Assembly (NCBI GenBank): GCA_038087875.1
Contig: CM075991.1
Span: forward strand, 13,084,001-13,148,000
Direction of reading: 5' to 3'
Origin: Malacoraja senta
Lineage: Eukaryota
DNA length: 64,000 bases
A program made the translations under genes and the position numbers. Under the pieces are notes generated by a model, which was not told the origin of the DNA, did not search any database, and was given only the letters and a program-made list of their open reading frames with translations. Positions within the stretch are counted from its first letter, which is position 1; every line of letters begins with the position of its first letter. Of the stretch, positions 875-63,346 are shown piece by piece.

Positions 875-3800
875 CTGAATGACATCACTGTATCAAGGCA
901 AATAAAATAACAGTCTGTTAAGAATACAAAGCGCTGTAATCACGTGGTATTCTCCTCTTCCACCATCATTTCAGCAGGGGACTGGAATAACCCCACAAAT
1001 CATTTTAGGAATAGGAAACATCTTTTAGGCCTAACAAACCTATCCTTTTGAAACATCAGCTACATATTCTGTAATTCCTTTCTTCCCACAATAAGATCTC
1101 TAAGGTTGCTTTATGCCAGCCCCTTCACTTACCTTCTCATCGGTATCCTTACTTCCAACTTCTTTCAGATTTCTCATCTGCAGATTGGATCTGATGTGAA
1201 TGGATCACAGCTCGTCATTCTCCCACTCAGTATTCATGCAGAAAATAGACACAAAAAGCTGGAGTAACTCAGCGGACAGGTAGCATCTCTGGAGATAAGG
1301 AATGGGTGACATTTCAGGTCGAGACTCTTCTTCAGACTGAGTCTGAAAAAGGGCCTCGACCCACAATGTCATCCATTCCTTCTCTCCAGAGATGCTACCT
1401 GTCTCGCTGAGTTACTCCAGCTTTTTGTGTCTAGCATCGGTTTAAACCAGCATCTGCAGTTCCTTCTCACACAGTATTCATGCAGAATAACTAGCAGTAA
1501 GTAGCCTTGCATTGGCTCAAATGGGCTAGCATATAAGTAGCTGAGACTATTTGATTATTATTAAGGTTTTGACATGATCCTTACTTTGGTTTCTGACCTC
1601 TGACACGAAGGCTGGCCCTGAAGTGAATTTCCCTTTGGCAGCGTGCTAAAAGAACAGCTGACCAGAGCAGAGTGAAGCGACTGCTTTAATTACTATTTTT
1701 GTAAGTCGCTGTTGTATTATACTTGTTAAAAGTACCATCTATGACGACTATATTATTGATACAAAATAGCATTGTAATTAGTTCATCAAATATTTTAAGA
1801 TTAAAACCTGAATCACTACACACTGAGTCACGTATCCTTGCTTGACATCTGCCACCGGGTGCCAAATACTATTAACAGGAATACCACAGCTTTGTTTTAA
1901 TCTGAGTAGATGTCAGAGTTGTAGAAGCTTGGACTTTTGCAGCTTTGTGGCTGGCAGCCTATTAATTGCACTAGATGCAGTCAAGCAAATGAATAGGAAA
2001 CCTCACAGTTTGTCTTCAAATGGCCCTCTGGCAGCAAGATCAAGGAGAGCAAGATAAATGGCACAACACCAACATGAGAATAGTGCCCAAAAGCTTCCAT
2101 ATAAAGGTTATGTGGAAGCCGCTGTTATGATCTTAAGATTTCTATGCCCAAGAAACAAGTAATGGCTTCAAAGCTGTTGGGGGGAAAGGTGAAGAGGGGC
2201 AGTTAGGCTAGAAATAAACAATTGGACAAGCAGCTGAGCATACAGGTGCCAGCATGGATATAGATAGATAGGACATTGCATACTGTAATTGCTTCAGATT
2301 TAGGAAATCCTGGCTGTTATAAATGCAAAGCCAGATAATTCAATATGCAACTTGGAGCATTGCTGAGGAAATTTTGTTCAGTGAAGAATGGGTGGTAGCC
2401 AAATGTCCTTATAAATAAAACACAACATCATTTTTCATGAAGCTCAATTAAAGATAAATCATAAAAGTAAATTTTAAGAATAAAACAAAGTAAAATATAT
2501 CGTTGGTCTATTTGCATCGATAAACAGGAGTACTGAATATTATTTGAGGAAGAGATTTTTTTCTTTCGTTGCACATGTGTGAATTGGACTAATGCCAATG
2601 TATATATGCCTATCTCCTATTATCCTTGAGAACATGACGTTGAGCCACTTTCTTCAACACTGCAAACCATGTGATGAAGATATTATAGACAATAGATAGT
2701 AGACAATAGGTGCAGGAGTGGGCCATTCGGCCCTTCGAGCCAGCGCCGCCATTCAATGTGATCATGGCTGATCATCCACAATCAGTACCCCGTTCCTGCC
2801 TTCTCTCCATATCCCCTGACTCCGCTATCTTTAAGAGCTATTACCACTATGTTGTGAATTCAACAATTTGGTCTAAATGATGGTGAAGGGATGGCATTGT
2901 ATTCCTGGTCACACTGATATGTGATGTGGGAAGCTGCAATCCTGCAGGTGTTATAATTTGTCTTCTGTGTCATAGAGGTTGGACATTTATTGTGTGGCAT
3001 CAATCAAGCTTTGGTGAGCTGCTTCAGTTTATTTTGTGGAAATTGCACACTGCAGTCATGGTACAACAGTGATAGATGGATTGATTGTTTGAAATAGTGG
3101 ATGGGGTGCTAATCAACTGGACTCTTTTTTTCTAGATGTTGCCAGACTTGAGTGCTGCCAATTGGAGAGTATTCCATCACAATGGTTGAAAAACGTTGCC
3201 AAGTTAGGAGATGAATCATTCACTGTAGAACACCTGCCCCGACCTGCTCTTATAACCACACAGCATGTGCCTTTTCTGATCAGTGATGCAAGAATGTTAA
3301 TTGAGGAGATGGTACCTCCTCTTGTCTATATCCCATCAGTTAAGATGATGGAGGAGTTCGAGGCTTTGGCTGATCATTGTGGTTTTGAGCCCATGGCTAT
3401 GTCAGCAGATTTGTACTTGTCTGAGGAATAACTAGTTCCATTTTTGGACAAGTCCTTATCTAAAAGAACTAGAAACTTGTCAGGAAACTCTTCTGCAGCA
3501 AGTGGTTGGTGTTTAGAATCCAATATCAAATAGGTTGATGGACTCGGATTCAGTGAAACCCACAAATTAGATTGATATTTAATGGAGAAAAATAAAGTGC
3601 AATTACATGAATCTAACACAAAGAGCTGGGATAGACCCAGTGGGTGAAATTATTTCCTTCTATTATGTGTAGGAAGGAACTGCAGATGCTGGTTTAAACC
3701 AAAGGTATGCACAACATTAAGGAGTAACTCAGCGGGACAGGCAGCATCTTTGTGAAAAGGAATGGGTGACATTTCGGGTTGAGTAATTATAAGTTCTAGG

Positions 3801-6800
3801 AAGAAGAGTCTCGACCCGAAACATCACCCATTCCTTCTCTCCAGAGATGCTGCCTGTCCTGCTGAGTTACTCCAGCATCTTGTATCCTCCTTCTATTATG
3901 TACTGTTCTACATTCTCAATTTATGGTTATAATTTATGTTAAATTACACATACCTTCAGACATATATTGTTTGTTACTCAGCTCATTTCACAATGGTAAA
4001 AGGTAATTATTTTGTGCTGATCAATAATTATCCAGCATTGCTAAGTGCTACCGTGCTACCAGTGCTTGAGTGAGAATGTACTTACTTTTCAATGATGAGG
4101 TCTGTGATTTCTTCATTCTCATCTTTCTCCTGTTGTCGAGGTGAGTCACTCAGTTCCATCCCTTCAATGTTTGGATCAACATTATCATAGATGTTATTAA
4201 TTGGTCCTTTCTTTCCAGTTATTGTGCATTCTAAATGTTCTTGGTCTATGTGCAACACTGTATGATTGTTCATGGTTTCGCTCCATATCTCCCGATCGGT
4301 CATAGGAGTTGTTTGGTTCATTTCCTGGCAATCGCGGAGTGGTGATTTGGTCTGCGTCTGGCTGGCTTTTTCTGTCTCAGTAGAAGCATCTTGTTCTTGG
4401 TAGACATCATCTGTGTGATCCATGAAAGTTTCTATCATTGATGTATGCTGATTGTCAGAGAAAAGCACTGCTTCAGAGATCGCTGTGATGCGGCTGGTCT
4501 GGGTGGTCTCTTTTATACCTCGAGAGAAAAAGAGAAATAATTAGAGGCTGCTGGGAAGAACAAGGAGTATGAAAACAGTTCAGATGAAAAAATAAGAACC
4601 AGCGGGGTAGGATGCAAATACTTACCAGGAAAGAATGCTTCCTTGGCATTGAAATAATTGGGCAAGGATTCGTCATTGCTTGTTATTTTCAGCTCTTTGG
4701 AGGGTGATTGATTTCCAAATGAAAAGTAGCTGGAGTCCTACAACAAGAGAAAAGGCCATTAGTTACATGTGACCAAGTTGTATCTGTGACTTAACAAGCT
4801 CCAGAATCCTGTGCTGTACATGTTCTCTTTATGGAAAATCGATCAAATTTTGTAAAAGAGTAAGGTGTCAATTGACATAAATATTTAGAGAAGACTCTGA
4901 TAATTCAGTGAACTGAACCACAAAGACCTGGAATGATGCAGGTGGATTATCTATCTGTGCTGTTGTACAGGGCCAGCTCTGAGCACTCTGGCCACTAAGT
5001 GGAGCAGGGATGGGGGGGGGGGGGGAGGGGGACTTTTGATTGTTTTCCTTTATCTCCTGGTGAAACGAGTTTCCACCATGACACTTGCAGATACATTTCA
5101 CTTAATCGTCTAGTTTTATGATCTATGCTTAGCTAAGACACAAAGTAAGAATTGGTTCTAAGAATGGACAGATTGGGATTATTGACTCAAGGCGAGTTTC
5201 TGTTACAGAACGGCACAGATGAGTTGATTTCCTGCCTGAGCAGGTGGAAGGTGGGGGTAATTTTAATCACTGACTGATTCACTTCTTGGAGGGCATGAAG
5301 AATCAATAGGATAAATAACAAATTATTTGTGAGGAATTATTTCCAACCATGTTTGAAATGTATCTGTTCTTCCTAGCCGCACAATGAAGAGCTGCAATCT
5401 TGCAAGTGAAGGCCTTCTTAAACCCAGAAGCATATTTGCTTCCGACTAGTTCGAGAGCCATCTGGTCTCACCTTAATAGAAATATTTCCTTCATTCTATC
5501 CATCTCTCTTCCACCTTTTCAGCTACCTAAAAATAAAGTTTTCTCTCTCCTTAGTTCTGATAAAACTTTAACTGCTTCCCTCTTCACAGATGCTGCCCGA
5601 CCTGCTGAATGTTTCCAGCATTTTCCTTTTTAAAATAAATGTAATTTGGTACTTTATGCTTTAATTGCTATTTTCTGACGCATATTATCTCTTAAATAGG
5701 AAAACAGGTCAGTCTAGGTTTTCATTACATGAAATTTGTGCTCTTAAATTATATTTTGGCAACAAAAGCAGAAATGTTCAGGCATAACCCTACCGCCATG
5801 CGGTCGGTCTGCCTGTTCCTGTTTCTTGTTTCTCATTGGCTTTAATTGGTCACGTTCTGTGCAAACAAACACTAACCCATGGTATATTATACCAGCAAGA
5901 TCTTAATGTAAAATGAACCATGATGATTTGGTGTTTGATCAAATGTTACATTTTGTCACTTCTTTACAAATATAGTTAAAGAACAAAACACTCAACGACT
6001 CAATGCTGAGATACTGAGAGGCCAAATATCAACACCCAAGGGTGAAATCTCACTCCAACCTGTTTACCTACAACGTTGTGCAAGACTGCTCTAAACTGTG
6101 GTTTATGGTGCTTAGTGGTTTCTGGATCAGTTACACAATTCCTTAAATTCCTTCAAATACATCCTTCACGATGATAACATTCTAAGCCCAGCACATTTAT
6201 CTGGCACAAATTACACACAACACTGATTTAGACACAAAAAGCTGGAGTAACTCAGTGGGACAGGCAGCATCTCTGGAGAGAAGGAATGGGTGACATTTTG
6301 GGTCCAGACCCTTCTTCAGACTGAATCTTTCCCATTCTTTTTTTTTATATAGGACCAACTATAATCATAATACACAAATGAAAAATAGCTGATTCAGTTC
6401 CTGAAATGTCTCACTCCAAACTGCTTTTTTTGTAGTTGATCTACCTTGTGAGGATGTGAAATTTGTCTCTGATAGAATGAGTGAGGATTCTCGAGTCTGG
6501 AGGAGATGCTGGGGCCACTTCCTACAGAGGCCCCAGTGGATTTCCTGTCCCTCCCTTCCCCTAGTGAACAGGGCCACCACCCTGGTGTTTCTCCCAGCGA
6601 TCAAACGCTCACCAAAGTTTATATTTCACTAAAGGGGCCAGCAAGAACAAAGTGGGACCCGGCATGAGGGACTGGGGGGTGGGAGGAGGAAGAGTACTTT
6701 TTGAATACTTTAGTAACTTAGTAGGCGCTCTTTACGTGACAACTCTTGCATACTTGTTCTGTGTGCAAAGAATCTCACTGTACCAAGTACACATGACAAT

Positions 6801-15200: not shown

Positions 15201-18200
15201 ATAAAGGAAAGTTTAAATGATTTATTTCTGCTGCTGAACAACTACCAGGAAGGGGAGATTCAAAGGGAAATTTGAACGGGTGAAATGCTTTGTTATGTGT
15301 TGTCCTTCAATCTATGATCCAGAGCATGTACATTCTCCTAAACAATTCTGCGGCTCCCCCATTTAAAAATGGTTCGTACCAGCAATGACAATCTAAGAGG
15401 CTTCCGTTGTCCTGATATGATCAAATGCCCTTGCATGCAAGACATAGGAGAGTGAATGTAACTCTGACAACCCAACACCTGCTGCCGTGGAACATTACAC
15501 TACTTCAAACAAAATGTATTTAAATGAATCAGCACCCTCATCATTTGCCTTGAGCTGACATGTCAACTCAGCATTTAACTCTTTCAAACCTAGTGCCAAA
15601 TATTGTGCGAAATAGTTCATCTTGTTACAGTTTTGCAGATATTTAAATATGTAAGAATCGTAATTTTTGGGTGCAATTCTGAATGGATGATTGTTGCAAA
15701 TGGTAGGTCCTGTGGTCGTACTTTATTTTAAATTTAGCCAGTAAAAATGTGAAATACAAACTTAGGAATTGCATCAGTACTTGAAAAGAGAAATGAAAAT
15801 TAATATTTTAGGGTTGGATTCTTTGTTGGAACTTCAGTTTTCACATAATTGAATCGATGACCATGCTATGGAAATTTCCTATTGTAATTTCTAGCTCCTA
15901 TTAACTCCTTAAAATCTGCCACTTTCACTTAGCATGGACCCAGTCCACATTACTATCATCGGAACCTTGGAACAGCACAGTACAGAAACAGGCCCTTCGG
16001 CTGATACTGTCTGTGCCAGACATGATGCCAAGTTAACCTAATCTCCTCTGCCTGCACATGGTTCATATCCCTCATACCCTGCATATCCAAAGCCTCCTAA
16101 ATGCTACTTTCATTATCAACCTCCTCTGACAGCACATTCCCATGCACCCACCATTCTCTGTGTAAAAAAACAACATCTCCTTTAAATGTCACCTTACAGC
16201 TATGCCCCCTATTCTTTGACACTTCCACCATGGGAAGAACGTTCATGCCACTCATCATTTTATAAACTTATATTACGCCTCCTGTCAGCCTCCGATGCTC
16301 TAGAAAAAATATTCCAAATTTGTGCACTCTCTTTAGAGTTCACCCTCTCTAATCCAAGAAACATTCTGTAAAGCTCCTCTGCGCCCTCTCCAAAGCCTCC
16401 ACATCGTTCCTGTAATGGGGAAACCAGAACTACACACAATACTCCATATACAACCTGACCAATGTCCTAGAAAGCTGCAAAATGACTTCCCAACTCAATT
16501 CCCTTACCTATGAACATATGACAGAGAAGGAGATAGAGCGTTACGCCAATAGATTTAGTTGAAGAAAGATAGGAATATCTTTGAGGGAAGGAACTGCAGA
16601 TGCTGGTTTATATTGAAACTAGAAACAAAATGCTGGAGTAACTCAGCGAGACAGGCAGCATCTCTGGAGAGAAGGGATGGGTGAGGCTTGACCTGAAACG
16701 TCACCCATTCCTTTTCTCCAGAGATGCTGCCTGTCACGCTGAGTTACTCCAGCATTTTGTGTCTATCTTAGGATCTTTGAGTGGGGAGACTGTTTCTGCC
16801 ACATATGCTGTGAGTAGTGGGCTGTGCAGTGAGTTGGGCGACTATTGATTAGTTGGGGAATGATGGTGAGTGTTGTCCAGTCCTGGTAACCAATGCCATT
16901 TGTGAGGAGTTTTCAGTGGGTATGGCTCCAGTCCAATTTAAAACTTTCCCTTCTCGCCCTAAACCTATGCCCTCTAGTTTTCAGTTCCATACCAGCAGGT
17001 TCAAGAGCAGCTACTTTACACAATTATCAGATTCTTGAACCAACCTGCATAAGTGTAATCCTACCTGGACAATGGAATACTATTGACCACAGTTTAAGCT
17101 GAGAGAGGAAAGATTTAGTAGGGGCCAGAGGGGTAGAGTGTATATGGAATGATCTGCTAAAGAAGGTAGTTGAGGCAGTTACAATAATAACATTTATAAA
17201 ACACTTGGACAGGTACATGGGGAGGGAAGGTTTAGAGGGATATGGGTACAGGATAACTAGCTTAGATGGGGCATTTTGGTCAGCATGGACGAGTTGGGCT
17301 GAAGGGCCTGTTTCTGTGCTGTATGACACTATGTACTACCATGGACATGTATGCTGTTGCACTACTAACATGATATTTTTTGTGGTAGTCCTTATTTTTT
17401 TTTACTGTCATGCAGAATTTGAACGTGTGCTTTATACATAATTTATGTTCTCGTATGTTTGCCTGAATCTATGTTGCTGTGATGCTGCTGCAAGCAAGAT
17501 TTTCATTGTACCTGTATCTCAGTGTACGTGCATGTGGCTAGGGATCTGACTCTTTATTCTGGGCCCTGGCTAATGAAAGCAAGTATCCAATATGCTTTCT
17601 TTACCGTCTTATTTAGATCTGCTGCCACCTTCAGGAATTCTCTGATTTGTACATCATTGTCCACAATTATACAAATGACAAATATAGACACAAGAGTGCT
17701 GGAGCATCTCAGCGGATCAGACAGCATCTCTGGAGAACAAGGATAGGTGACATTTCACAGAGTGCTGGAGCATCTCAGCGGATCAGGCAGCATCTCTGGA
17801 GAACAAGGATAGGTGACGTTTCACAGAGTGCTGGAGTAACTCAGCGGGTCAGGCAACATCTCTGGAGAAAAAGGATGAGTGATGTTTCGAGTCGGGACCC
17901 TTCGTCAGCCGTGTCTGACCCAAAACATCACCCATCCATTTTCTCCAGAGTTGCTGCCGCAACTCCGCTGAGTTACTCCAGCACTTTGTGTCTATCTTTG
18001 GTATAAACCAGCATCTGCAGTTCCTTGTTTCTATAAAAAAGACAATCCCCACTGACAGTCATATAAACTCCAGCCCCCACCCTAATTATTAAAACTTCAA
18101 TTTTTTATGCACCACTCACCCCCAACTAACTGATCGCAATAACGTTCTTATGTCAAATGACTCAAACCCAGTGGCCCCTGGCGCCATCCACAGCAAATCA

Positions 18201-21200
18201 CATTGGCAAGCCTTCACTGCCAACGGCTCAGCCTCCGGCCCCCACCAGCAATGACACAAATCAACCCTCCCTCACGATTCAGAAACCACAACCGCACGCA
18301 CAACTATCCAACCCACACCCCACAGTACAAAGGACACCTCAATAATCCAAATGTTATTAGGGGATACAAAATTAAGATTGGGGTAGATAAGGGAAAAAGT
18401 AGGAATATAGAGTGAGAACCCCTTTTTTGGTCTGTCTAAAACAAGGCTTAGGTATAACATGAGAGGCAGGAGGTTTAGAGAGGACCTGAGAGGGATTTAT
18501 GTTCACCCATATAGTGGTTGGAGTCTTGAATACATTGCCCAGTGCGGTGATGGAGATAGTCTCATAACATGTAAGAAGCATCTGGAAAATCAAGAACTGG
18601 AGTCGGTGAGAGGGAAAGATTTAGTAGGAACCTGAAGTGCAATTTTTCCACACAGTGGGTGGTGTTTATGTGCAACAAGCTGCCAGATGGAGGATTTGAG
18701 ACAGGTATAAGAACAACATTTGAAAGACACTTGAACAGGTTATGGATTGGAATGATTTAGAGATAAGGGTGAAACATGGGCAAATGAGACCAGCTTAGAT
18801 GGTGCATCTTGGTCAGCATGGACAAGGGCTGAAAGGCCTGTTTCTATGTAGTATGGCTCTATGACACTAAGGTATAGAAAGCTATGGAGCAAATGCAGGT
18901 AAATGGGAGTTGTATAGATAAGTATAATGATGGGTGGAAGAGCTGTTTCTGTGACTGCCTCTTGCCCCCCAGTGACCACAGTTCAGGAACCACCTCACAA
19001 CGTTACAAACTTGAGGCATCCACCAAACCTGAGCCTCTCACTCAACGATTGAAACTTAAGACCTCACCCCCAATAAACAACTTTAACCCACCTACCCCAA
19101 CTAAACAAAAGTTAATCTCCACTAACAGTCTCAAAATGTAAACCCCACCATCATGATTTACACTTCAACCGAGAGAGGAGAACTTCTTCATAAGAGAAAT
19201 GAGAGATCGTCCTCTCTCCGACAAGAGTCTGAGAGTGAGATTCCCCTCTTATCCTTCAGCAAGTACAGACCCAGAGCCATCAAACATTCCTCATACGTTA
19301 AACCAATCATCCCCAGGACCATTGTCGTAAACTTCCTCTGGTCCCTCTCCAACGGCAGCACGTCCTTCCTCAGATATTAGACCCAAAACTGCTCACAATT
19401 ATCCAAATGTGGCCTGACCAATTCCCTATAAAGCCTCAGCATTACATCCTTGCTTTTATATTACTTTTATATAACAGCAGGGGTCAAGGAAAGAGTGTTC
19501 ACGTTGCAGCCGTTTCCACCAATCTTTCCATCACTACGCACAAGTACAAGAAGCTCAAGACGCCATTGTCTGCAGATGCCGAGAAGTGTGTTCAGCTCTG
19601 GCTGAACAATTTCAAATCTTATGATGTGGACTCGATACGAAGAAGATATAGCAGCATTTCATATTTCACTTGGGCAGCTTACAGCCCAGTGGTATGAATA
19701 TTGAAGGTACACACAAGATGCTAGAGTAACTCAGTGGATGAGGCAGCATCTCTGGAGAGAAGGAATGGGCAATGTTTTGAGTCGAGACCCTTCTTCAGAC
19801 TGAATATTGATATGAATATTGATTTCTCTCATTTCAGGTAGCCCCGGCATTCCTTCTCTCTCTATGCCTCCCCCACCCAAGTCACACTAGCGTCTCATTT
19901 TTACCCAACAAACAGCTAACAATGGCCTGTTTCCTTTATCATTGTTACTTTTTTGCATATCTTTCATTCATTGTTCTTTATATCTCCACATCACCATCTA
20001 TATCTCTCGTTTCCCTTATCTCTAACCAGTTTGAAGAAGGGTCTCGACCCGACCCGCATTTCTACACATGTAGATATGAGTTCTTATTTCTGCACACCAG
20101 TAGACTGGCCACCTATTCAGTGATAAATGTAATATTTCTGCTGTGGAGCGGACAAAATGTGTAGGAAAGAACTGCAGATGCTGATTAATACTGAAGATAT
20201 ACACAAAATGCTGGAGTAACTCAGCAGGTCAGCCAGTATCTCTGGAGAAAAGGAATAGATGACTTTTCGGTTTGAAATCCTTTTTCTTTCTGCTGTTGTG
20301 TTACACATTTGTACACTTCTTAAATAACAGAGCAAATGTGAGTTTGCTTTGTTGGAATTAATTAAAGTTTCCCAAGCATCAGAGAAGGCAATAATTGAAA
20401 GTAATGTTGAGGTAGGTATAAGCCACAGATGATAAATCCAGACATAACTTCATTTGCGTAGAAATTGCTTCACGGTATTTTTCCCTCTGTTTTACGTGAT
20501 TGAAAATCGATATACTTCTAACTAACTATTCTATGTGCCCTAGTTATCACCCTACCAAGGAAAACATGTCCTTCCTTTCCACCCTCTCATAATTACTGTA
20601 ACGTCAGACAAGGCAGTCTCTCATCATAACTGTAACATACATTGTATTTGCATTCATTCCAGTGTCAAATCATGTCAGTTGAGAAACTCCAGCAGGCACG
20701 TCCTGCCATGAGTCACCCATGCGATTCCAACGTGGCTCCTTGTGGAGGCTGCAGCTGATGATGACACTTCCTGGGCAAGACTCACTTGGAACATTTCAGC
20801 AGAGTTGAGACCATGTTATCATGGGATGCCTGGTGTGGGCACAACCAGGACAAAATGTAGTGCTGGAAGAACTCAGCAGTTCAGGTGATGAGAAAGTGGG
20901 TTGCAGCAAATATAAGCAAGGAGAATACAACGATCTGCCCCAAACTACTCTCCAGCAGAGTGCAGCAGTGAAATCATTGAGTAATAAATAAATAACGTGA
21001 GATAAATACAAAGAATTTATTAATGAACAAATCAGTATTCATCACAGAAATGTCCCCCTCCTACCCCCACCATCCATCAGGCATTGTTATACTTTAATCC
21101 CATTTCCTTTTGGTGTTATATTCTCTGCCACGGCTAATGAAGGCAAATATCCCACACATGTTCTTTACCATCTTAACAACCTCTGCTGCCACCTTCAGGA

Positions 21201-21349: not shown

Positions 21350-21392
21350 AACCTAGCTGAAGAAGGGTCTCGACCCGAAACGTCACCTATTC
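21350..21392 (+). ncRNA. Minimal hammerhead ribozyme-like motif in a Penelope-derived repeat
   Basis: CTGAAGA-A-GGGTC(TC)GACCC-GAAA-CG-TC; similar motifs at 26672-26700(-), 37586-37613(+), 17881-17908(-), 24318-24345(+). Confidence 0.6.
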
Positions 21393-22805
21393 CTTCTACG
21401 GAGTTACTCCAGCAATTTGTGTCTACCATTCTTTAACCCACGACTACCCTCCTCATTGTCAGCAGCATCAACAATCTTCATGCCATTTACAAAGTTATTA
21501 ATTATAACTCCTACATTTACATCCAAGATTAATGTACATAACAAACTATTAAGGTCCAAACACCACTCCCTGTGGTGATCCAAAATTCACAAAAATAATC
21601 CTACACCATCACTCTCTGCCTCCTTTTCTCAAAACTACAGTATTCTCTACCTTACCTCCCATAACAGCCTGTAATATATCTCATTAAATGCTGGGATTTA
21701 TTCACATTTAAACTTGCTAAAACATCAATTGTAAACCTCCTCCTTTTTGATGGGAATTGATTGTAACATTTCACTAACTCTAAATCCTCCAGCCACAATG
21801 ACCTTCTCCTTAGTGAATAAAAACCAGCAAGTATTTAATTAAGCCTGTGTTCTCTGGCTTCTTTGTGAGTCTCTAATGGCTCTGTACTTTTCCTGGTTAC
21901 TCTCTTGCCCTTAATATACATAAAATGTTTTGGAATTTTCCTTATCATAACCACCAATACTCTTTTGTGCAGCCCTCGTTGTCCTTATTTGTACTATTTT
22001 TCTGTTATACACCTGCACATTCTACATTGCTGGAAGGCACCTCCAGTTATAAACTTTCTAAACATGACATAAGCCACCATTTATTAAAATCCAATCCTCG
22101 ATATCTCTTGATATCCTGGGTTCTGACCCCTCACTATTTCATTTTTGATTGAATATGAGAGGATGCGGAATTGGACTCTGCTCAAACCTTCTCACTTCTC
22201 AGCACATTGTCCTCCCCCATCCCTCCCCTAAAACCTAATCACTATTCCACATAATATCAATCCCGTTCATTATTTTTACATATACAGCAATTGTAGGAAG
22301 AATTGACATTGCAATTGAAACCCTTTTATGAAAGAGTATCGGCGTGACACATGAGCAGTTTCCATCTTCATGCAAATTCCATTGGCACGACCATTAACCA
22401 ATTCCATTTCAGCAGTTACATCAGGGTTTTTTGTTGGGCTAGACATTGGAAATAAGATCAAGGTCACGTTGAAACTGTATTAATTGTTCATTGGGCCACA
22501 ATTAGTTTCTGTCGTCCTACTCACAACACTACAGGAAGGGTGTGATAGTTCCAGAGAGAAAGCAGAGATTTATGAGGAGGATAATGAAGGATGCGAGACT
22601 TACAGTTATGATGAGAGACTGTCTTCTCTGACGTTACTGTAATTATGAGGGTGGACAGGAAGGACATGTTTTCCTTCGTAGGGTGATAACTAGGGCACAT
22701 AGAATTATTAGTTAGAAGGAAGAAATAGTTTTTACTGAACAAATCAGGGCGGGGTTGAAAACTGACTGCTTGAAAGAGTTGTGGAGGCAGAAACTAATAA
22801 ATGTA

Positions 22806-22962: not shown

Positions 22963-22964
22963 TT

Positions 22965-24450
22965 ACATTTACCGACATTTACTACAATGCTACTGACTCC
23001 CGTAGCTATCTTGACTACACTTCTTCCCACCCTGCTTCATGTAAAGACACTATCCCCTGCTCCCAATTTCTCCGTCTATGCCGCATCTGCACCCAGGATG
23101 AGGTGTTCCAAACCAGGGCATCGGCGATGTCCTCATTCTTTAGGAAACGGCGGTTCCCCTCTTCCATTATAGATGAGGCTCTCACCATGGTCTCCTCAAT
23201 ATCCCACAGCTTCGCTCCTACTCCCCCTCTCCCCATTCGCAACAAGGACAGTCCCCCTTGTCCTCACCTTCCACCCCATCAGCCGTCGCATACAACATAT
23301 AATCCTCCAACATTTTCACCACCTCCAACAGGATCCCACTACTGGCCACATCTTCCCATCTCCACCCCTTTCTGCTTTCCAGAGACCGTTCCCTCCAAAA
23401 CTCCCTGGTCAACTCATCCCTTCCGACTCAAACCACCCCCTCCACAGGTACTTTCCACTGCAACCGCAGGAGATGCAACACCTGTCCCTTTAAAACCCCC
23501 CTCAACTCCATCCAAGGACCCAGTCTTTCCAGGTGAGGCAGTGGTTCACTTGCACCTCCTCCAACCTCATCTACTGTATCCGCTGTTCCAGGTGTCAACT
23601 TCTATACTTCGTCGAGACCAAGCGCAGGCTCGGCGATCGTTTCACTGAACACCTCCGCTCAGTCCGTCATAACCTACCTGATCTCCCGGTGGCTGAGCAC
23701 TTCAACTCCCACTCCCATTCTCAATCTGACCTTTCTGTCCTGGGCCTCCTCCATTTTCAGAATGAGGCCCAGCGCAAATTGGAGGAACAGCACCTCGTAT
23801 TTCGCTTGGGTAGTTTACACCCCGGCGGTATGAACATTGACTTCTCTAACTTCAGATAGCCCTTGCTTTCTCTCTCCATCCCCTTCCCCTTCCCAGTTCT
23901 CCCACTAGTCTTAAGGGCCTGTCCCACTTTCCCGAGTTATTCACAAATTCTCCCTAGTTTTCCCCTTGATTCAAACTCGCAGAATGTTCGTAACGGGTCT
24001 TTAGGAGTCCGTAGATATGTCGTAGCGGCTCGTTATGCCAGCCGTAGGCACTCGGGGCATCAGGTAAGTCGGGACGTTTTTTCCAGCTTGATAAAAAATG
24101 TCCACGAGTAAACAAATAGTCGGGAGGATGCCCCGAGTACCTACGGCTGGCATAACGAGCCACTACGATATATCTACGGACTCCTACGGACTCGCTACGA
24201 ACATTCTGCGAGTATGAATCAAGGGGAAAACTCAGGAGAATTTGTGAAAGTGGGATAGGCCCTTTACTGTCTCCGACTACATTCTATCCTTGTCCCGCCC
24301 CCTCCCCTGACATCAGTCTGAAGAATGGTCTCGACCCGAAACATCGCCCATTGCTTCTCTCCAGAGATGCTGCCTGTCCCGCTGAGTTACTCCAGCATTT
24401 TGTATCTACCTTTGACTTAAACCAGCACCTGCAGTTCTTTCTTACACACT
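22965..24450 (+). mobile_element. 5'-truncated Penelope-like element (RT thumb, GIY-YIG, 3' tail) interrupted by a MITE
   Basis: NLIYCIRCSRCQLLYFVETKRRLGDRF...EEQHLVFRLG; colinear with the 36.6-37.7 kb copy; frameshifted. Confidence 0.9.
23914..24263. mobile_element. PIF/Harbinger-type palindromic MITE
   Basis: Termini AGGGCCTGTCCCACTTTC / GAAAGTGGGATAGGCCCT, long internal inverted arms, TTA duplicated on both flanks (23911-23913, 24264-24266). Confidence 0.88.
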
Positions 24451-25145
24451 AGCCATTTCTACTATAAGTGATGCAGTGATCTGTTTGTCATTCTGGCTCA
24501 GTCTTTCTCGCTCCACTAGTACAGGCCGATTTGTTGGGCATGTCCTACATTTCACATCTTTTATGATTGCCCTAATTTCTTTACTTTAGTTCACTTTCTC
24601 TATCTAACTGCCTCCACTAACCCAGTCATTGAATGACTTCTACAATGTATCCTCATGGCAATCCCGGCCTCTTTCGTAGATTTTTCTCATCATTCTCTCC
24701 ATCCTTTCTTTATCTGCACCTTATTCCCTATCTTTCCCAGTTTGAGCCAAGAATCTTTGACCCGAAATATTGACTCTGTTTCTCTTCCCACAGATGATGC
24801 CTGATCTGCTGCTGAATGTTTCTAGAACGTTCTGGTGGTGTCACTCATGTCTCCATTTTTCCTCCTCTTGCCCACAGGTGGCTCCAATCCCACATTGTGC
24901 AATCCCCTGCCAGTCGCAGAAACCCAGATTGTCAAAGAAAAAGCAGGCATGCATTTTTGCAATAATCTTGCATAACTACAGAATCTCTGCAAATACTTTA
25001 TAATAAAGTAAGTAGTTCCTGAATGTATGCCCATAATTTACTGTTGAAATGTAGCAATCAATTTGTGCACATGAAGCTTTTCACAAACAGCAGTTAATCA
25101 AGTGTTCTACCAATCGTTTTATGATGCTGATTGAAGGACATACTT

Positions 25146-27866
25146 TAGGTATGTTACAAAACTTACCTTCAGCGGCGCTGCAGTTCTGTCACTGCCCGTG
25201 TGCGTGACTTTGGCGCCTTTGAGAGGGGGGAGGGTTTAAAATGCCTTGTTTCTCCAGCCTATTCAAATCGATGTCTGTCAGGCTGTGTAGCTGCTAAAGA
25301 ATAATCGCTTCGACTGCCGTTTTATTAAGTTTCTTTTAAACCAAAGATACTGGAGGAGCTCCTCTAGTATCTTTGTTTTAAACTGCACTGGATATTTTAC
25401 GAACAGGAGTAAATTAAAAATAATCTTCTAAAGCCGTCAACGCCGACAAAGGGGACGGATTTCATGTACGGGACAGGTAAAGGAAAGCCGTTTATTTTAT
25501 ATATAAACTTGTTTCTAAGGATGCCTTTAATCAAAATTTCACGTTGCGAAAATGTCATTATGTAAATATACGAACCGGCAGTATTTTTCCTGCCGATATG
25601 AAGTTTAAATTCACCGCAAATGCAATGTTCCAAACCAGCGCGTTCCACAAAAACCCACTCGCAAGATGATTAAAATGGCCATTAATTTACGGGAATTAAA
25701 CACTAAATTCCTTCCTTTTTTTTTTTGTTTTTTTTTTTGTTCTTATTTATTGAACATGTTAAAAAAATAAAAATACAAATAAACTTATAAGCAATAAAAA
25801 AGAAAATAAAACACAAAGGAAAACAAACAAATAAGTAACTCAAATAATACAAATAATATTAGGTATGTTACAAAACTTACCTTCAGTCGCGCTGTAATTC
25901 TGCCACTGGCCGTGTGCGCGATTTTGGCGCCTTTAAGGGGGGGCGGGGTTAAAACGCGGGTTTCTCCTCCCTTGTCCTGGTTAATATTTTGTTGGAGTAC
26001 AAGCCTTGGCTGACAAATCGTTCCTAGTGGCGATTTGTGTATTTTTTATTTTTATTAAATCGTCAATGTCAGCGCAAGAGTAATTTTAAAATCAGCTCCT
26101 GAAGCGTCAACGCCGATAACGGGGACGGATTTCACACACGGAACAGGTAAACGAAAGTGGTTTCTTTAAATGTATAAAAGTGCTTCTTAAGAAGCCTTTA
26201 ATTCACATTTTTTCATGCGACTCGGTGATTTTATTCCCCGAATTAACGGCAGTATTTTTCATGCCGATACGGGGTTAAATTCACCGCAAATGAACGTTCC
26301 AAAAGATCGCGTTCCAGAAATCCTCACTCACAAGATGAATTAAATGCCCATTAATTTACAGGTATTAAACATTCAATTCCTTCCATTTGGCCTGTAAATT
26401 CATGAAAATTAGATTTAAAAATTATGTTATATTGTGAATTATTGTGTGAATGTTATTTGGACACTTAGGCTATTTAAAAATGTTAATCTATTCTTAAGAA
26501 ATTGATAGATGTTTAGATCTAGTAATTGAATTTTGCAATTAGCTACAATTAGGTAACTAACTAATTATATGTGTTAAAGAAGGAACTGTAGATGCTGGAA
26601 AATCGAAGGTACACAAAAATGCTGGAGAAACTCAGCGGGTGCAGCAGCATCGATGGAGCGAAGGAAATAGGTAACGTTTCGGGCCGAAACCCTTCTTCAG
26701 TACCTAACTAATTATATGCTTTACTTTCATGTCTTCGAAGTAAGATTGTTTTATATTTGTTTCAGAATGCTTCAATCTATAATAACTGAAAATTTATTTC
26801 AGTTATCATAATTTTTAAGAAAGTTATGGGCTTTTAACTGTCCTCGATCACAGCTTTTGTGTTAAGTCAATGGAAAAGCAATAGGGAACTAGATGCTAAT
26901 TTCTGAGTATGATAATGGCCATAACTTTTTTAATACTGAAGATATGAAAGTGAATTAAGGTTCAAATTAAACTTCTTTTTATGCTTTATCTGATGGGATA
27001 AATTGCAGACTTTATTTTTAAAATCTCAAAATTTTGTAACATTGCTAATAATATCGTTCATGTTCAAAAGGGGTAAGAAGAAGTTCGAAAACTTTTCTGG
27101 TCCTACCCCCTCTTATTTTCTATACATTTTCATGGAAAAACAAAATAATGGGAACAAATGGACCCAAAATCTGTTGAACAGTCCACAAACAAGAAATAAC
27201 CAAACAGAAAAGAAAATCACTGGTCCAGCTCATAACCATTCAATCTTTTATTTCTGAAGAGTGTTTTTAGTTTGAATAGAGTCTTACATTTTTTCAGCTC
27301 ATCATGGCTGTTATTCCAGAGACTAACACCCTTTGCTGTAACACAATGGAGTTTGGCCTATAAATTAATGACAATGAGATTTTAAAATCATGTTATATTG
27401 TGAATTATTGTGTGAATGTTATTTGAACACTTAGGCTATTTAAAAATGTTAACTTTTTCTTAAGAAATGGATAGATATTTAGATCTAGTAATTGAATTGT
27501 GTAATTAGCTACATTTGGGTAACTAACTAATTATATGCTTTAATTTCAGGTCATACAAATAAGATTGTTTCATATTTGTTTCAGAATGCTTCAATCTATA
27601 ATAACTGAAAATGTCATTCAGTTCTCTTAATTTTTAAGAAAGTTATGGGCTTTTGACTGTCCTTGATCACAGCTTTTGAGTTAAGACAATGGAAAAGCAA
27701 TAGGTAACAAGATGCTAATTTCAGAGTATGAAAATGGCCATAACCTTTTTAATACTGAAGATATGAAAGTGAATTAGGTGTCAAATTAAACTTATTTTTA
27801 TGCTGTATCTGATGGGATAAATTGCAGGCTTGATTTTTTAAATCTCAAAATTTTGTAACATTGCTA
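25146..27866. mobile_element. Non-autonomous DNA transposon (outer copy) containing nested insertions
   Basis: Ends TAGGTATGTTACAAAA / TTTTGTAACATTGCTA, with CATACTT duplicated at both flanks. Confidence 0.8.
25860..27047. mobile_element. Second copy of the same DNA transposon family, nested in the first
   Basis: Same termini, ATAATAT duplicated at both flanks, colinear with the outer copy. Confidence 0.82.
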
Positions 27867-35374: not shown

Positions 35375-37682
35375 CTTACCTTTGTCCCCCCCCCCGTCCC
35401 CACCTCAATGAGTTCCGCGCCCTCCATGACTTGGAACGCTTCTACCGTCGCCTCCGCCTCACAGCTCACTTCCATGGGAAGGAGTCCTCGCTCCTCACTG
35501 ATGACCCCTTTTCCCGTCTCCAACGCACCCCCTCCTCATGGAACCCCCCTCGTGGCCTTCCGGCTTTAGAACTCTTCATTCAAAACTGCCGCCGTGACAT
35601 CAACCGCCTCAACTTCTCCACTCCCGTCTCACTCCAATCTCTCCCCCCCTGAACGCACTGCCATCGACTCACTCCGCAACAACCTAGATTGGGTTATCAA
35701 ACCCGCCGACAAGGGAGGTGCCGTGGTAGTCTAGCGCGTCGATCTCTACAAAGCTGAGGCCACGCGCCAACTCTCGGACACCTCCTCCTACTTACCCCTG
35801 GACCATGACCCCACTGACGAGCACCAGGCCACCATCTCCAGCACCATCACCGACTTCATCCACTCCCACGCCCTGCCCGACCGAGCCTCCAACCTCATCG
35901 TTCCCCAGCCCCGCACAGCCCGCTTTTACCTTCTCCCCAAAATCCACAAACCTGACAGTCCCGGTAGACCCATTGTCTCTGCCTGTTCGTGCCCCACCGA
36001 ACTCATCTCCACCTACCTCGACTCCATCCTATCCCCCTTGGTTAAATCCCTCCCTACCTATGTTCAAGACACCTCAGACACTCTCCGTCATCTCCGCGCA
36101 TTCCACTCTCTAGGCCCTCACCCCCTCATCTTCACCATGGACGTCCAGGATGGTCTCGAAGCCCTCCATTTTTTCCTCGACCGTAGAAGCAACCTATACC
36201 CGGCCACTGACACCCTCCTCCGCCTAGCGGAGCTGGTCCTTACACTTAATAACTTTTCATTTGACTCCTCCCATTTCCTCCAAATACAAGGCGTAGCTAT
36301 GGGCACACGCATGGGCCCCAGCTACGCCTGCCTCTTTGTCGGGTACGTAGAACAATCCTTGTTCAATGCGTACCAGGGCCCCATCCCCGACCTCTACCTC
36401 CGCTACATCGATGATTGTTTTGGTCCCACATCATGCACCCACACACAACTGACTGACTTCATCCGCTTCACCACCAACTTCCATCCGGCACTCAAATACA
36501 CCTGGACCATTTCCGACACTTCCCTACCATTCCTTGACCTCACTATCTCCATTGAAGGTGATAGACTCCTTACCGACATCCACTACAAACCCACCGACTC
36601 CCATGGCTATCTGGACTACACTTCTTCCCACCCTGCTTCCTGTAAGGACTCCATCCCCCACTCCCAATTCCTCCGTCTACGCCGCATCTGCTCCCAGGAT
36701 GAGGCGTTCCACACCAGGGCATCTGAAATGTCCTCATTCTTCAGGGAACGGGGGTTCCCCTCCTCCACCATAGATGAGGCTCGCACCAGGGTCTCTGCCA
36801 TACCCCGCAACACTGCTCTCTCTCCCCATCCCCCCACTCACAACAAGGGCAGAGTCCCCCTAGTCCTCACCTTTCACCCCACCAGCCGTCACATACAACA
36901 AGTGATCCTCCGTCAGTTTCGCCACCTCCAACGTGACCCCACCACTCGCCACATCTTCCCATCTCCCCCCATGTCTGCCTTCCGCAAAGACCGCTCCCTC
37001 CGTAACTCCCTTGTCAATTCTTCCCTTCCCTCCCATACCACCCCCTCCCATTGTACTTTCCCTTGCAACCGCAAAAGATGCAACACTTGTCCCTTCACCT
37101 CCGCCCTCGACTCCATTCAAGGACCCAAGCAGTCGTTCCAGGTGCGACAGAGGTTCACCTGCATCTCCTCCAACCTCATCTATTGCATCCGCTGCTCTAG
37201 ATGCCAGCTGATCTACATTGGTGAGACCAAGCGGAGGCTTGGCGATCATTTTGCCGAACACCTCCGGTCGGTCCGCAATAACCAACTTGACCTCCCGGTG
37301 GCTCAGCACTTCAACTCCCCCTCCCATTCCGTATCTGACCTCTCTATCCTGGGTCTCCTCCATGACCACAGCGAGCAACACCGTAAATTGGAGGAAATGC
37401 ACCTCATATTCCGCTTGGGCAGTCTACATCCTGGGGGCTTGAACATTGAATTCTCCCAATTCTGCTAGCCCTTGCTGTCCCCTTCCCTTCATCAGCCCTC
37501 TGGTTGTCTCCTCCCCTACCCCAGCCCTCGGGCTCTTCCTCCGCCTTTTTCCTTTTTTCCTTTCTTCTCCCCACCCCCTATCAGTCTGAAGAAGGGTTTC
37601 GGCCCGAAACGTTGCCTATTTCCTTCGCTCCATAGATGCTGCTGCACCTGCTGAGTTTCTCCAGCATTTTTGTGTAACTTCC
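35375..37682 (+). mobile_element. Penelope-like retroelement, near full-length but defective (RT + GIY-YIG endonuclease)
   Basis: ORF 36038-37468 has GVAMGTRMGPSYA, LRYIDD and NLIYCIRC..C...YIGET. Upstream coding region is broken by a frameshift and a stop; 3' tail carries a hammerhead-like motif. Confidence 0.93.
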
Positions 37683-37689
37683 TTTTCTA

Positions 37690-60900: not shown

Positions 60901-63346
60901 TCCTTCTTCATCCTCTGCTGGATCTACACTTTCCACCTGTGGTTTAAGGTGTTCTTCACTTAGACGATTGCGAATCTCTGGAATTCTCTGCTCTAGAGGG
61001 TGCTGGAGGCTGGTTCATTTGCTGAAATTTTGTTTTCACTGATGACACTGGACCACACATAAAGGAAATTGGGAAAATTACAAAATAAAGTACTTGTAAG
61101 TTTAAGTCACTATTAATCGGCATGGTGGTGCAGCAGCTGATCTATCTCTCCCTCCTATCCCCATTCTCCTGCCTTCTCCCCATAACCCTGACACTCGTGC
61201 CAATCAAGAATCTATCTATCGCTGTCTTAAAAAGATCCATTGACTGCCTCCACAGCCTTTTGTAGCAATTAATTCCACAGATTCACCACCTCTGACTAAA
61301 GAAATTCCTCCTCATCTTCTTAAAGGAACCTCCTTTAACTCTGAGGCTACGACCTGTGATCTGTGTGATGGACTGGGCTACATCTACAACTCTCTGCAAT
61401 TTTTTGCTGTCATGGGCAGAGCTGTTCCCAAACCAATCTATGATGCAACTCTACAGAATGCTTTCTATAGTGTATCTGGAGACATTTGTAAGAGTCAGTG
61501 GAGTTATGCCGAATTTCCTCAGTCTTATCACGAAATAGAGGCGTGTGCCTGTCACAGCAATGTGGCTGGTCCACCACAGATCATTGGTAATATTAATACC
61601 AAGGAACCAGAATCTCTCATCCATTTCAACACCTTTGATGCTGATTGGGGCATATGGCCCATCCTGCTTCCTGAAGTCAATAAGTTACTCCTTTGACTTG
61701 CTGAAATTGAGGGAAATGTTGTTATTCTGACACCATATCACTACGTTCTCTATTTCCTTGCTGAGTTCGCCATCTCCTTCATATACTCCCTGCACATGCA
61801 CCTGAATTCATTGGAAGAACATGATAGAGAGAATCAACAACTTCAAGTTCCTGGGCATGCACATCTCTGATGACTTATCTTGTTTTTTTTAGTTTAGTTT
61901 ATTATTGTCACGTGTTCTGAGGTACAGTGAAAAGCTTTTATTTGCATGCTATCCAGTCAGAACGATTCTACATGAATAGTCAATCCCCCACAGTGCACAG
62001 ACGAAGGATAAAGTGTACAACATTTAGTACAAGATATAACATTGAAGTCTGATAAAGTCCAATTAAAGATCATTCAAAGGTCACCAATGAGGTAGATGGG
62101 AGGTCAGGACCACGAACTTGGGCAGAGCTCATTGATGCAAGTACAAAAAAACCTCACCAACATCACAACTCGCTCTTCGTACAGGTGAGCGGTGAAGAGC
62201 ATAATAACTGGTTCCATCATGGCCGAGTTTGGAAATTCAAATGCCCCAGAATTAAGGAGGCTGGAGAAAGTGGTGGACGTTACCCGGTCCATCATGCGAA
62301 ATGACCTCCCCGTCTTTGAAGAAAACTACCAGAATCCCAGCCACTAGAAGGCAGCTAATATCACGAAAGACCTAGCCATACTGTCACCACGCTGCTGCTG
62401 TTACCATCGGGAAGAAAGTTGTCCTCGGGTTCAAGAACAGCTTCTTCCCGTCAGACTCTTGAACTGCACAACCTTAACCATAACTCTACCTCAGCACCAA
62501 AATATCATGGGCTGTATATGTAGGAAGGAACTGCAAATGCTGGTCTACGCCAAAGATAGATACAAAATGCTGTAGTAACTCAGCGGGTCAGGCAGCATCT
62601 CTGGAGAAAAAGAATAGGTGATGTTTCGGGTGGAACCGTTCTTCATACTGAGAGTCAGGGGAAAGGGAAACTGGCTGTATGAAAAGGTTCTGCAGGAGGA
62701 ATCACAGAGGAGGAGCAATGAGAGAGGGTGTTGCAGAACTCCTGACGGAGAGAGAACGTCTTCAAAGTAGGCATACCTCAAGGAGATTTTCCAGTGGTGC
62801 AGACAAAGTGTGTAGGAATGAACTGCAATGCTGGTGTAAGACTGTTTCTCTGCGTACTTAATCATGGTCTGGTTTACCCAGTAATCTGATATTTTATTTG
62901 TTGTGTGGTTGAGTTTAATGTTCCTGTGAAGCTGCAGCAAATAAGAATTTCATTATTGTGGTCCCAGTACATATGACAATTAACCACTCTTGACGTTACA
63001 ACCCTTCAAGGAGGCTTTGAGTACATCGTTGAATCTTATCTCTGTCGACCTGGTAATTCCTTCCCCGCGATAGAGCATGGAACGGAGTCACGGAGATTGT
63101 AGATGCTGGAAATTTGAGCAAAACACTAAATGCTGGAGGAACTCAGCAAGTCAGGCAGCATCTGTGGAGGGAATTACACGGTCTGGATCCGACCCGAAAC
63201 GTCGTCTGTTCATTCCTTCACCGAATGCTGTATCATGGCCCGCGTGCAAGAGAGTGTCTGTCCTACCTCCTGGGCTGAGGTATTCCATGCCACACACGCT
63301 GAGACGGGCTGAACTGTTCCATGCCAGTGATGCCACACACGCTGAG

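What the first reader, a model, noticed from the sequence alone, without database searches (positions are those of the whole stretch)
1247..63210. Dispersed Penelope-derived short repeats carrying minimal hammerhead-ribozyme cores
Seen: about a dozen copies of CTGA(A/C)GA-A-GGGTCTCGACCC-GAAA-CG-T(C/T). Best preserved are 21357-21384(+), 26672-26700(-), 37586-37613(+) and 17881-17908(-); degenerate copies lie near 1310-1370, 3800, 6295, 19775, 20035, 24318, 62625, 63190. Stem II varies while keeping pairing (GGGTC/GACCC versus GGGTT/GGCCC), and stem III is the palindromic ACGT. Known: Penelope-like elements carry minimal type I hammerheads thought to act as dimers. Inference: most copies here lack any ORF, so they may be an abundant non-autonomous ribozyme-bearing family. 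Caveat: stem I is only about 2 bp and there is an extra A after the core.
Basis: partly seen in the sequence, partly recalled or inferred. Interest (0 to 1): 0.7.

Follow-up and report, generated by a model that had tools for sequence, protein, structure and literature searches.

The report
Penelope retrotransposon stumps with hammerhead motif
These short repeats are stump-sized insertions of the end of a Penelope-type jumping gene in a cartilaginous-fish genome; they carry that element's known minimal self-cutting RNA motif, mostly decayed, and they tend to begin just in front of the motif rather than at its cut site.

Summary
The motif is real (6 strict matches vs 0.055 in shuffles; 29 family arms) and fits the published minimal type I hammerhead of Penelope-like elements (PLEs), extra A and palindromic stem III included (PMC4209133). 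Short copies are separate insertions of about 70-350 nt with 9-19 bp target-site duplications, single or head-to-head, with or without the known 30-40 nt tail. They do not look like a selected ribozyme family: 3 of 12 keep core, stem II and ACGU, 1 also stem I; no compensatory changes; short copies mix with ORF/UTR-attached ones. One unexplained point: 5' junctions cluster at -5..+2 of the core, not at the cut (+28), in the window (9 of 15; 9 of 21 with old fragments) and in three contig runs. Best guess: run-off cDNA to the RNA's 5' end. Polyadenylated RNA reads showed no pile-up at the cut. The scan found the same before on other (shark) DNA. Known kind, new lineage.

The parts
35390..37680 (+). 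5'-truncated, broken Neptune-like PLE: RT, Cys linker, GIY-YIG endonuclease, pyrimidine-rich 3' UTR, hammerhead, short 3' end (no tail). 5' bound approximate
   Evidence: open stretch 35735-37468 (577 aa), stop and frameshift upstream, short in-frame gap in RT; no TSD found
37586..37613 (+). Minimal type I hammerhead; only copy with core, stem II, ACGU and the 2-bp stem I; predicted cut after 37613
22969..24448 (+). Second 5'-truncated PLE (RT thumb, endonuclease, UTR, degenerate hammerhead at 24318, tail), with a palindromic insert at about 23915-24263 in its UTR
1244..1471 (.). Head-to-head palindromic insertion; both arms start at about -3; + arm has the tail; TSD of about 16-20 bp (1224-1243 / 1468-1487)
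3669..3887 (.). Head-to-head insertion; - arm (from +12) with tail, + arm (from +2) without; exact 14-bp TSD
6228..6324 (-). Single arm from about -5, no tail, G12 lost; no TSD found
16586..16772 (.). Head-to-head insertion lacking CUGANGA; - arm (from +26) with tail, + arm (from +15) without; 9-bp TSD (moderate)
17682..18031 (.). Head-to-head insertion; + arm (from +15) with tail; - arm from 0 followed by a 66-bp tandem (3 copies, 17693-17888) that lacks CUGANGA and stem II; weak 14-bp TSD with 2 mismatches
19705..19803 (-). Single arm from about -2, inserted in reverse into the endonuclease end of an older PLE; exact 12-bp TSD
19650..20052 (+). Older PLE remnant: endonuclease end, UTR, partial hammerhead at 20030 (C3 lost, cut short)
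   Evidence: 5' bound approximate
20145..20286 (-). Single arm from about +2, with tail; 10-bp TSD
21354..21426 (+). Single arm from 0, intact core but no stem I, internal deletion; exact 12-bp TSD
26572..26700 (-). Young single arm from 0 with tail, 96% identical to the 37586 end; intact core, no stem I; TSD 15-19 bp
62516..62720 (-). UTR-attached arm with tail, C3 lost (62646); 5' bound approximate
63096..63232 (.). Older head-to-head pair (- arm with tail remnant, + arm cut short)
63832..64000 (+). PLE endonuclease end and UTR running off the window at the first core letters
24749..24831 (+). Old, diverged arm with pyrimidine-rich upstream (one of the older subtype; others at 5573-5624 +, 58499-58561 -)
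33321..33389 (-). 3' fragment with tail abutting another repeat; similar short fragments at 20851-20885 -, 35208-35239 +, 38747-38793 +, 41502-41547 +

Best explanation
The repeats are dead, independently inserted copies of the hammerhead-bearing end module (pLTR) of Neptune-like PLEs, made by the autonomous element's RT and GIY-YIG endonuclease. Shown: PLE origin, TSDs, two 3' ends about 35-40 nt apart, head-to-head pairs, 5' junctions at the upstream edge of the core, neutral-looking decay. Inferred: the endonuclease cuts AT-rich DNA; RT primes inside the RNA at the short site or the tail site (as shown in vitro for an Anolis PLE, PMC11167929); when it uses the sites in the 5' pLTR the cDNA runs off the RNA's 5' end after only 90-130 nt, which gives stumps beginning 0-3 nt before the core (the context TCAGTCT fits the recalled initiator consensus). 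When both target strands prime, two such cDNAs are joined head to head at self-complementary bits in and beside the hammerhead, giving palindromes with a tail on one arm. The template was uncut, so the ribozyme does not set the boundary; it works, if at all, in the master transcript as a dimer or with protein help.
For: Closest named relatives of the RT/endonuclease stretch are shark and ray proteins at 61-71% identity; DKG, YIDD, CX4CXXC linker and GIY-YIG/CCHH residues present. TSD scores 12-17 at five sites, none of 150 random pairs reached 11. 9 of 15 TSD- or palindrome-bounded arms start at -5..+2, none at +28 (nearest +26); rough binomial 3e-4 after window correction (offsets read by eye). 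In one search depth jumps at the core's 5' edge (run X18 2.6M to 11.6M to 20.7M), and the best-supported loose ends with unrelated AT-rich flanks (agreement 0.34-0.45) lie at 37584-37585 (X18), 37583-37585 (X13), 37585-37586 and 37591 (X4); listed strand-switch or go-back joints concentrate at 37624-37627 to 37583-37597, where CCTTC matches GAAGG. In 3 of 3 clean asymmetric palindromes the tail is on the more truncated arm, which a simple fold-back copy of the longer arm cannot give. Core CpG sites 18 of 58 mutated; 0 of 8 pairs with two-sided change. Inverted 5'-truncated copy plus one-sided tail are textbook PLE traits (bioRxiv 2021.04.23.441226 passages; PMC3846280 passages).
Against: No RNA 5' end was seen: the one raw RNA run (X24, another organism, 6% read, fragmented poly(A) library) listed no start pile-up at -3 and its top six loose ends did not include -3..0. 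Only 24 of 1,762 loose-end rows and 15 of 169 joints were displayed. Depth of contigs is not copy number, and other subfamilies with different UTRs inflate the step (loose ends at 37580, 111 contigs, are as frequent as at 37584, 117). Six old fragments that start downstream of the motif were left out of the 15; with them it is 9 of 21. No full-length tandem element is in the window, so the pLTR-ORF junction and ORF start were not seen (one search found no match). Non-CpG core sites are somewhat less variable than flanks (4.1% vs 9.4%, p=0.059), though flank counts include subfamily differences. n=3 for the tail asymmetry.
Confidence: 0.62

Rival explanations
1. The stump is itself a re-mobilised non-autonomous unit: a 90-130 nt copy carries its own start, hammerhead and internal priming sites, is transcribed, and is copied in trans without its flank.
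For: Stumps outnumber ORF/UTR-attached arms (15 vs 6 of 29 arms, the rest fragments). Fixed 5' edge and two fixed 3' ends are what such a unit would give. pLTRs suffice in cis for mobilisation in trans (PMC3846280 passages). Tandem retrozymes are argued to derive from pLTRs (bioRxiv 2026.07.22.740005, parts 1-3).
Against: No stump-only clade: 4 attached rows need 4 changes, shuffled mean 3.8, on a short and poorly resolved tree. Reads over the module are nearly strand-symmetric (2319 vs 2089) and 89% run on into unrelated sequence, as for passengers in host RNA. No selection on the core in stumps.
Confidence: 0.2
2. The boundary is a 3' splice site: a pLTR intron ends at the YAG just before the core, as in D. 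virilis Penelope, and splicing-related processing or RT stalling there ends the cDNA.
For: All six UTR-attached copies shown have a pyrimidine tract and CAG directly before T-CTGA although their UTRs differ. In D. virilis the intron end maps to the 5' end of helix I (PMC4209133; intron in PMC2377424 passages). One remnant has AG-GTAG at the stop codon. A start at T plus a cap-derived G would read as 37584, the commonest loose end in X18 and X13.
Against: No splice joint among the displayed joints of the RNA run (UTR depth there only about 16-20). A spliced template should add a common exon 1, but loose ends are unrelated flanks. Donor-like site is absent in 2 of 4 ORF ends.
Confidence: 0.12
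3. Ordinary random 5' truncation, sharpened by RT pausing or microhomology at the structured, self-complementary motif (TCAG-N-CTGA palindrome, stem II, purine core pairing with the downstream pyrimidine block); the RNA start is elsewhere.
For: Palindrome centres and joints sit on such complementary bits. Core pairs with +30..47 at probability 0.5-1.0 in 7 of 10 arms.
Against: Arms do not fold better than shuffles (z -1.0 to +1.0); shuffled downstream sequence weakens stem II about as much. Single arms with clean TSDs also start at -2..+2, past the structure.
Confidence: 0.15
4. The copies are active dispersed ribozymes that cut host transcripts or yield circular RNAs.
For: Three copies keep the full core and ACGU. 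Similar min-HHRs cut weakly as dimers (PMC4209133) or with PLE protein (PMC11167929).
Against: Only 1 of 12 has stem I; paired arms lie on opposite strands and form -114 to -160 kcal/mol hairpins; the only tandem lacks the 5' core; no begin/end pile-up at 37613-37614 in RNA reads; no strand bias among arms (14 +, 15 -).
Confidence: 0.04

Closest known systems
[quoted passage not shown]
   Same: CUGANGAH core, G10.1-C11.1, extra base after A9, palindromic 15.2-16.2 without loop, thousands of single motifs attributed to truncated PLEs; the Acropora Neptune and Crassostrea rows have the same layout.
   Different: No cartilaginous fish among the 56 aligned motifs; helix I here is 2 bp (as in D. 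virilis, Culex, Oikopleura) while most listed have 3 or more; the paper parts read do not map 5' junctions.
Neptune/Nematis-type endonuclease-positive PLE insertion units with inverted 5'-truncated copy and one-sided tail (Craig et al., bioRxiv 2021.04.23.441226; Arkhipova et al. 2013, PMC3846280; passages read)
   Same: C-terminal GIY-YIG, Cys linker, head-to-head pLTR, 30-40 nt tail on one end, TSDs, solo pLTRs.
   Different: Here most insertions are reduced to 90-130 nt per arm with no ORF, and start at the hammerhead edge.
Poseidon_Ac of Anolis (Frangieh et al. 2024, PMC11167929; parts 1-2 read)
   Same: Two internal RT start sites that define the tail; AT-rich targets including its own ORF-pLTR junction (cf. 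19705-19803); no RNA-seq ends at the ribozyme cut; cleavage not needed for insertion.
   Different: Other clade (no Cys linker); its ORF starts inside the hammerhead, whereas no start codon lies in the core here.
Non-LTR retrozymes (Li et al., bioRxiv 10.64898/2026.07.22.740005; parts 1-3 read)
   Same: ORF-less, type I hammerhead, pLTR-related; one chondrichthyan genome was sampled.
   Different: Defined as tandem repeats with a complete motif in at least two consecutive units; not met here.

Membership tests
PLE min-HHR (type I) | Core CUGANGA, extra base, G10.1-C11.1 stem II, GAAA, palindromic 15.2-16.2, UH | tested here: met
   Complete in 3 of 12 aligned arms and in the majority letters; matches consensus
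PLE min-HHR (type I) | Helix I closing the core | tested here: inconclusive
   2 bp in the majority sequence, 70.8% of cells paired; present in 1 of the 3 core-intact copies
PLE min-HHR (type I) | Located in the pLTR of an RT+GIY-YIG element | tested here: met
   118 nt after the stop of 35735-37468; also after endonuclease ends at 23856, 19840, 63950
PLE min-HHR (type I) | Compensatory variation in stems | tested here: not met
   0 of 8 pairs with two-sided change in 12 window arms; small, related sample
PLE min-HHR (type I) | Self-cleavage as dimer or with protein | not testable with these tools
   No end pile-up at the cut in run X24, a weak test
Neptune/Nematis EN+ PLE | DKG motif, RT core, C-terminal GIY-YIG with CCHH | tested here: met
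   (PF00078, PF01541 on relatives)
Neptune/Nematis EN+ PLE | CX2-5CXXC linker between RT and endonuclease | tested here: met
   C444, C449, C452 of the 577-aa stretch, conserved in relatives (definition)
Neptune/Nematis EN+ PLE | RT phylogeny with reference clades | not tested
   No labelled reference set fetched; Neptune versus Nematis not separated
Neptune/Nematis EN+ PLE | Inverted 5' copy, one-sided 30-40 nt tail, TSD | tested here: met
Non-LTR retrozyme | At least two consecutive tandem units each with a complete hammerhead | tested here: not met
   Only tandem (66 bp x 3, 17693-17888) lacks CUGANGA and stem II
Non-LTR retrozyme | Circular RNA of unit length | tested here: inconclusive
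   No such joint displayed for the poly(A) run X24; library unsuited
Distinct non-autonomous (SINE- or MITE-like) family | Own subfamily sequence and fixed structure separate from the autonomous element | tested here: not met
   Attached copies interspersed with stumps, 79-96% identity; palindrome centres all differ; tree poorly resolved

The most novel reading that the evidence does not exclude
The PLE RNA starts 0-3 nt before the hammerhead core and is primed at two internal sites 90 and 130 nt downstream, so the pLTR stump is a complete, self-renewing miniature retroelement (start, ribozyme, priming sites) that has spread through shark and ray genomes in trans, and palindromes arise from two such cDNAs made by a dimeric enzyme on both target strands. 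The stumps would then be a genome-wide record of the PLE insertion mechanism, and show that the ribozyme cut is not used to define the template.
Probability: 0.22. Interest if true: 0.55.

Novelty: new member of a known kind. Interest (0 to 1): 0.3.

Why it matters
The hammerhead-PLE link and the mass of single motifs from truncated copies have been in print since 2014, so the finding as written is a known association in a lineage that the 2014 alignment lacked. What could matter is the junction pattern. The role of the PLE hammerhead is an open question; thousands of stumps that begin at the motif's upstream edge, not at its cut, argue against cleavage defining the template, and make RNA start, intron and twin-priming models testable by counting junctions in an assembly. 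Searches for this pattern in print found no description for cartilaginous fish; subscription papers, Repbase entries and Lunse et al. 2017 could not be seen.

Tried and rejected
No whole genome is held for this window. Rfam: no hammerhead model matched, only chance microRNA-hairpin matches on the palindromes, all under gathering score. Pfam missed the broken PLE protein (0 families for it); its identity rests. Pattern scans found nothing in viral contigs or metagenome contigs. No RNA holder was listed for 35380-37700; X4 and X13 are contig runs of uncertain type, X24 is raw poly(A) RNA of another organism. Lunse et al. 2017 is not held; only its summary in PMC6765202 passages was seen. ORF start downstream of the hammerhead: no relative's N-terminus matched the arms. 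'Core sequestered by a designed anti-ribozyme fold': not better than shuffled controls; two rows were off by one base and were redone. A longer stem I with a distal pairing was considered by eye and dropped as inconsistent between subtypes. Host gene not identified (Atlas lead at 0.76 only; no receptor motifs), so orientation to the host transcript was not tested. Retrozyme and palindromic-MITE-master readings rejected. No TSD was found for 6228-6324, the two ORF-bearing copies, and only chance-level ones for 63096-63232, 62516 and 33321. File 1 of the PMC4209133 supplement and bioRxiv supplements could not be read; they may list chondrichthyan families.
Full report
Observation. The four named copies and the eight degenerate sites are all in the sequence. 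A strict pattern gives 6 matches against 0.055 in 200 shuffles, and an HMM seeded on 7 arms finds 29 arms at 8 bits or more, above the best of 10 shuffled windows (6.2 bits); they cover 2,490 bp, 14 on + and 15 on -. The repeat is not the 28-nt motif alone but a module of about 90 nt, or about 130 nt with a further 35-40 nt tail. Below, positions are given relative to C3 of the core (0); the predicted cut falls before +28. Rfam does not see the motif.

Origin. The copy at 37586 lies 118 nt after the stop of a 577-codon open stretch (35735-37468) whose closest named relatives are shark and ray proteins at 61-71% identity, then coral, sea urchin and snail proteins near 50% (120 of 2,119 hits listed). 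[quoted passage not shown] By the definitions in Craig et al. (passages) the linker places it with Neptune or Nematis rather than Penelope/Poseidon; I built no RT tree. The copy is 5'-truncated and broken. Further PLE ends carry the same module at 24318, 20030, 62646 and at the window's right edge.

The motif. Cervera and De la Pena (PMC4209133; main text parts 1-2 of 4 and supplement parts 1-2 of 3 read) give the consensus CUGANGAH-G...C-GAAAN-palindrome-NUH, note the extra base after position 9, report a 2-bp helix I in D. virilis, and say most motifs are single and probably come from truncated PLEs. No cartilaginous fish is among their 56 aligned motifs.

State of the copies. Of 12 arms aligned over the motif, 3 keep core, stem II and ACGU (21357, 26700, 37586) and only 37586 also has the 2-bp stem I. 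No pair of 8 shows a change on both sides (shuffles 1.4), and the 15.2-16.2 pair is broken in 6 of 12. Among 17 arms of the commoner subtypes, the two CpG pairs in the core are mutated in 18 of 58 cells; over all sites the core is no better kept than the next 60 nt (13.0% vs 9.6%, p=0.15). Without CpG sites the core varies less (4.1% vs 9.4%, p=0.059), but flank counts include subfamily differences, so this points at most to conservation in the masters. Folding gives no stable hammerhead: z-scores -1.0 to +1.0; the core often pairs with a downstream pyrimidine block, but shuffled downstream sequence weakens stem II about as much.

Anatomy of the short insertions. Five have TSDs beyond any of 150 random pairs (1244-1471, 3669-3887, 19705-19803, 21354-21426, 26572-26700; 12-19 bp), two have 9-10 bp and one a weak 14 bp; six other sites tested gave none or chance level. 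Four clear sites, and an older fifth, are head-to-head palindromes, each with a different centre, the tail on one arm only; a transcript would fold them into hairpins of -114 to -160 kcal/mol, so they cannot act as dimers. One stump sits in reverse inside the endonuclease end of an older PLE. Inverted 5' copies, one-sided tails and solo pLTRs are known PLE features, and Frangieh et al. show that the tail lies between two internal RT start sites, that targets are AT-rich and include the element's own ORF end, that cleavage is not needed for insertion, and that RNA-seq shows no ends at the cut (PMC11167929, parts 1-2 of 4). The only tandem (66 bp x 3) lacks the 5' core, so the retrozyme definition of Li et al. 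(parts 1-3 of 5) is not met.

Separate family? In a tree of 21 arms (8 of 29 left out as too short or deleted) the 4 ORF- or UTR-attached rows need 4 changes, the same as shuffled labels (3.8); 26700 is 96% identical to the ORF-attached 37586; other young stumps are 79-94% identical to 24318 or 62646. The tree rests on 69 columns and most forks are weak. No stump-only lineage is seen, but the window is too small to exclude one.

The boundary. Of the 29 arms, 6 continue into a pyrimidine-rich UTR, 2 are tandem units, 6 are old or interrupted fragments, and 15 have a readable 5' junction. Nine of the 15 start at -5..+2; the other six (+12, +14, +15, +15, +26, about +45) are all palindrome centres; none starts at +28 (read by eye; rough p 3e-4 for a 7-nt window; 9 of 21 if the six fragments count as misses). 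Public data agree: on 36500-37700 at 88% likeness, contig depth in run X18 rises from 2.6M to 11.6M and 20.7M at the core, and the best-supported loose ends with unrelated flanks lie at -2 and -1 (X18: 117 and 66 contigs), -3 to -1 (X13) and -1, 0, +5 (X4). Limits: 24 of 1,762 loose-end rows were shown; loose ends at -6 (111 contigs in X18) mark subfamilies with other UTRs, which also inflate the depth step; the raw RNA run X24 did not list -3..0 among its six. X24 showed near-equal depth on both strands over the module, 89% of reads running on into unrelated sequence, one end pile-up (37483) and none at the cut, and no displayed splice joint: passengers in host RNA, and a weak test of cleavage.

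Mechanism. Best reading (0.62): RT primes at one of two internal sites and runs off the RNA 5' end, which lies just before the core; the context matches the initiator consensus as I recall it. Priming on both target strands gives two cDNAs joined at complementary bits; listed joints gather where CCTTC (+36..+40) matches GAAGG (+5..+9), and in 3 of 3 clean asymmetric palindromes the tail is on the shorter arm, which copying of the longer arm could not supply. The RNA start, the twin priming and any ribozyme activity are inferred, not shown. Rivals: self-renewing stump (0.2; overlaps with the best reading in its first steps), splice acceptor (0.12; every attached copy has a pyrimidine tract and CAG there, as in D. 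virilis), structure-biased truncation (0.15), active dispersed ribozymes (0.04).

Earlier notes and print. Three earlier reports of this scan, on other shark-like genomes, reached the same readings; I had noted palindromes and boundary clustering before seeing them, and they are not independent support. Six literature searches found the general association but no account of these stumps in cartilaginous fish; Lunse et al. 2017 and Repbase were not available.

Verdict. Real, correctly recognised as PLE-derived, and mostly known. The non-autonomous family is unproven and the copies look dead. The junction pattern is a modest, testable clue to PLE insertion. New member of a known kind; interest 0.3.

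Noticed in passing
window 23915-24263: A palindromic insert of about 350 bp (inner arms 23940-24061 and 24127-24248, 92% complementary) with TTAA-like ends inside the UTR of the second PLE; looks like a MITE of a TTAA-targeting DNA transposon (class recalled, not tested).
   Followed up: no
window 9965-11059 (-): 364-codon acidic open frame, probably a large last exon of a host gene; Atlas lead to the growth hormone receptor intracellular family at 0.76 only, no receptor motifs found elsewhere.
   Followed up: partly
window 36500-37480, run X24: Over the PLE ORF the first mates lie about 2-4 to 1 on the + strand, which in most stranded libraries means RNA antisense to the ORF; over the pLTR the ratio is 1.1. 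Library orientation unknown.
   Followed up: no
window 37781-38644 (+) and 41723-42349 (-), 40435-40836 (-): Young LINE 3' fragments; two are 94% identical over 623 nt in inverted orientation 3 kb apart. A different LINE (RT match) lies at 42469-43629 with many 3' fragments elsewhere.
   Followed up: no
window 12488-12738, 30228-30424, 34809-35059, 45614-45780, 47807-47880, 56473-56669, 60501-60662: A dispersed SINE-like family of about 250-300 nt, often ending in a LINE-type tail (families D8, D11, D16, D17).
   Followed up: no
window 26386-26999 and 27352-27818: Local duplication at 91% identity; the young stump 26572-26700 sits in one copy only, so the other copy is a natural empty site (families D7, D20).
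   Followed up: no
window 63311-63516 and 9174-9345: GC-rich minisatellites (34-bp and 28-bp units); the first lies beside a GC-rich stretch at 63.5-63.8 kb that may be a promoter island.
   Followed up: no
window 17909-17914 (-) and 63176-63181 (+): The same six letters precede the motif at two palindrome centres; could be chance or a trace of another upstream sequence or first exon.
   Followed up: no
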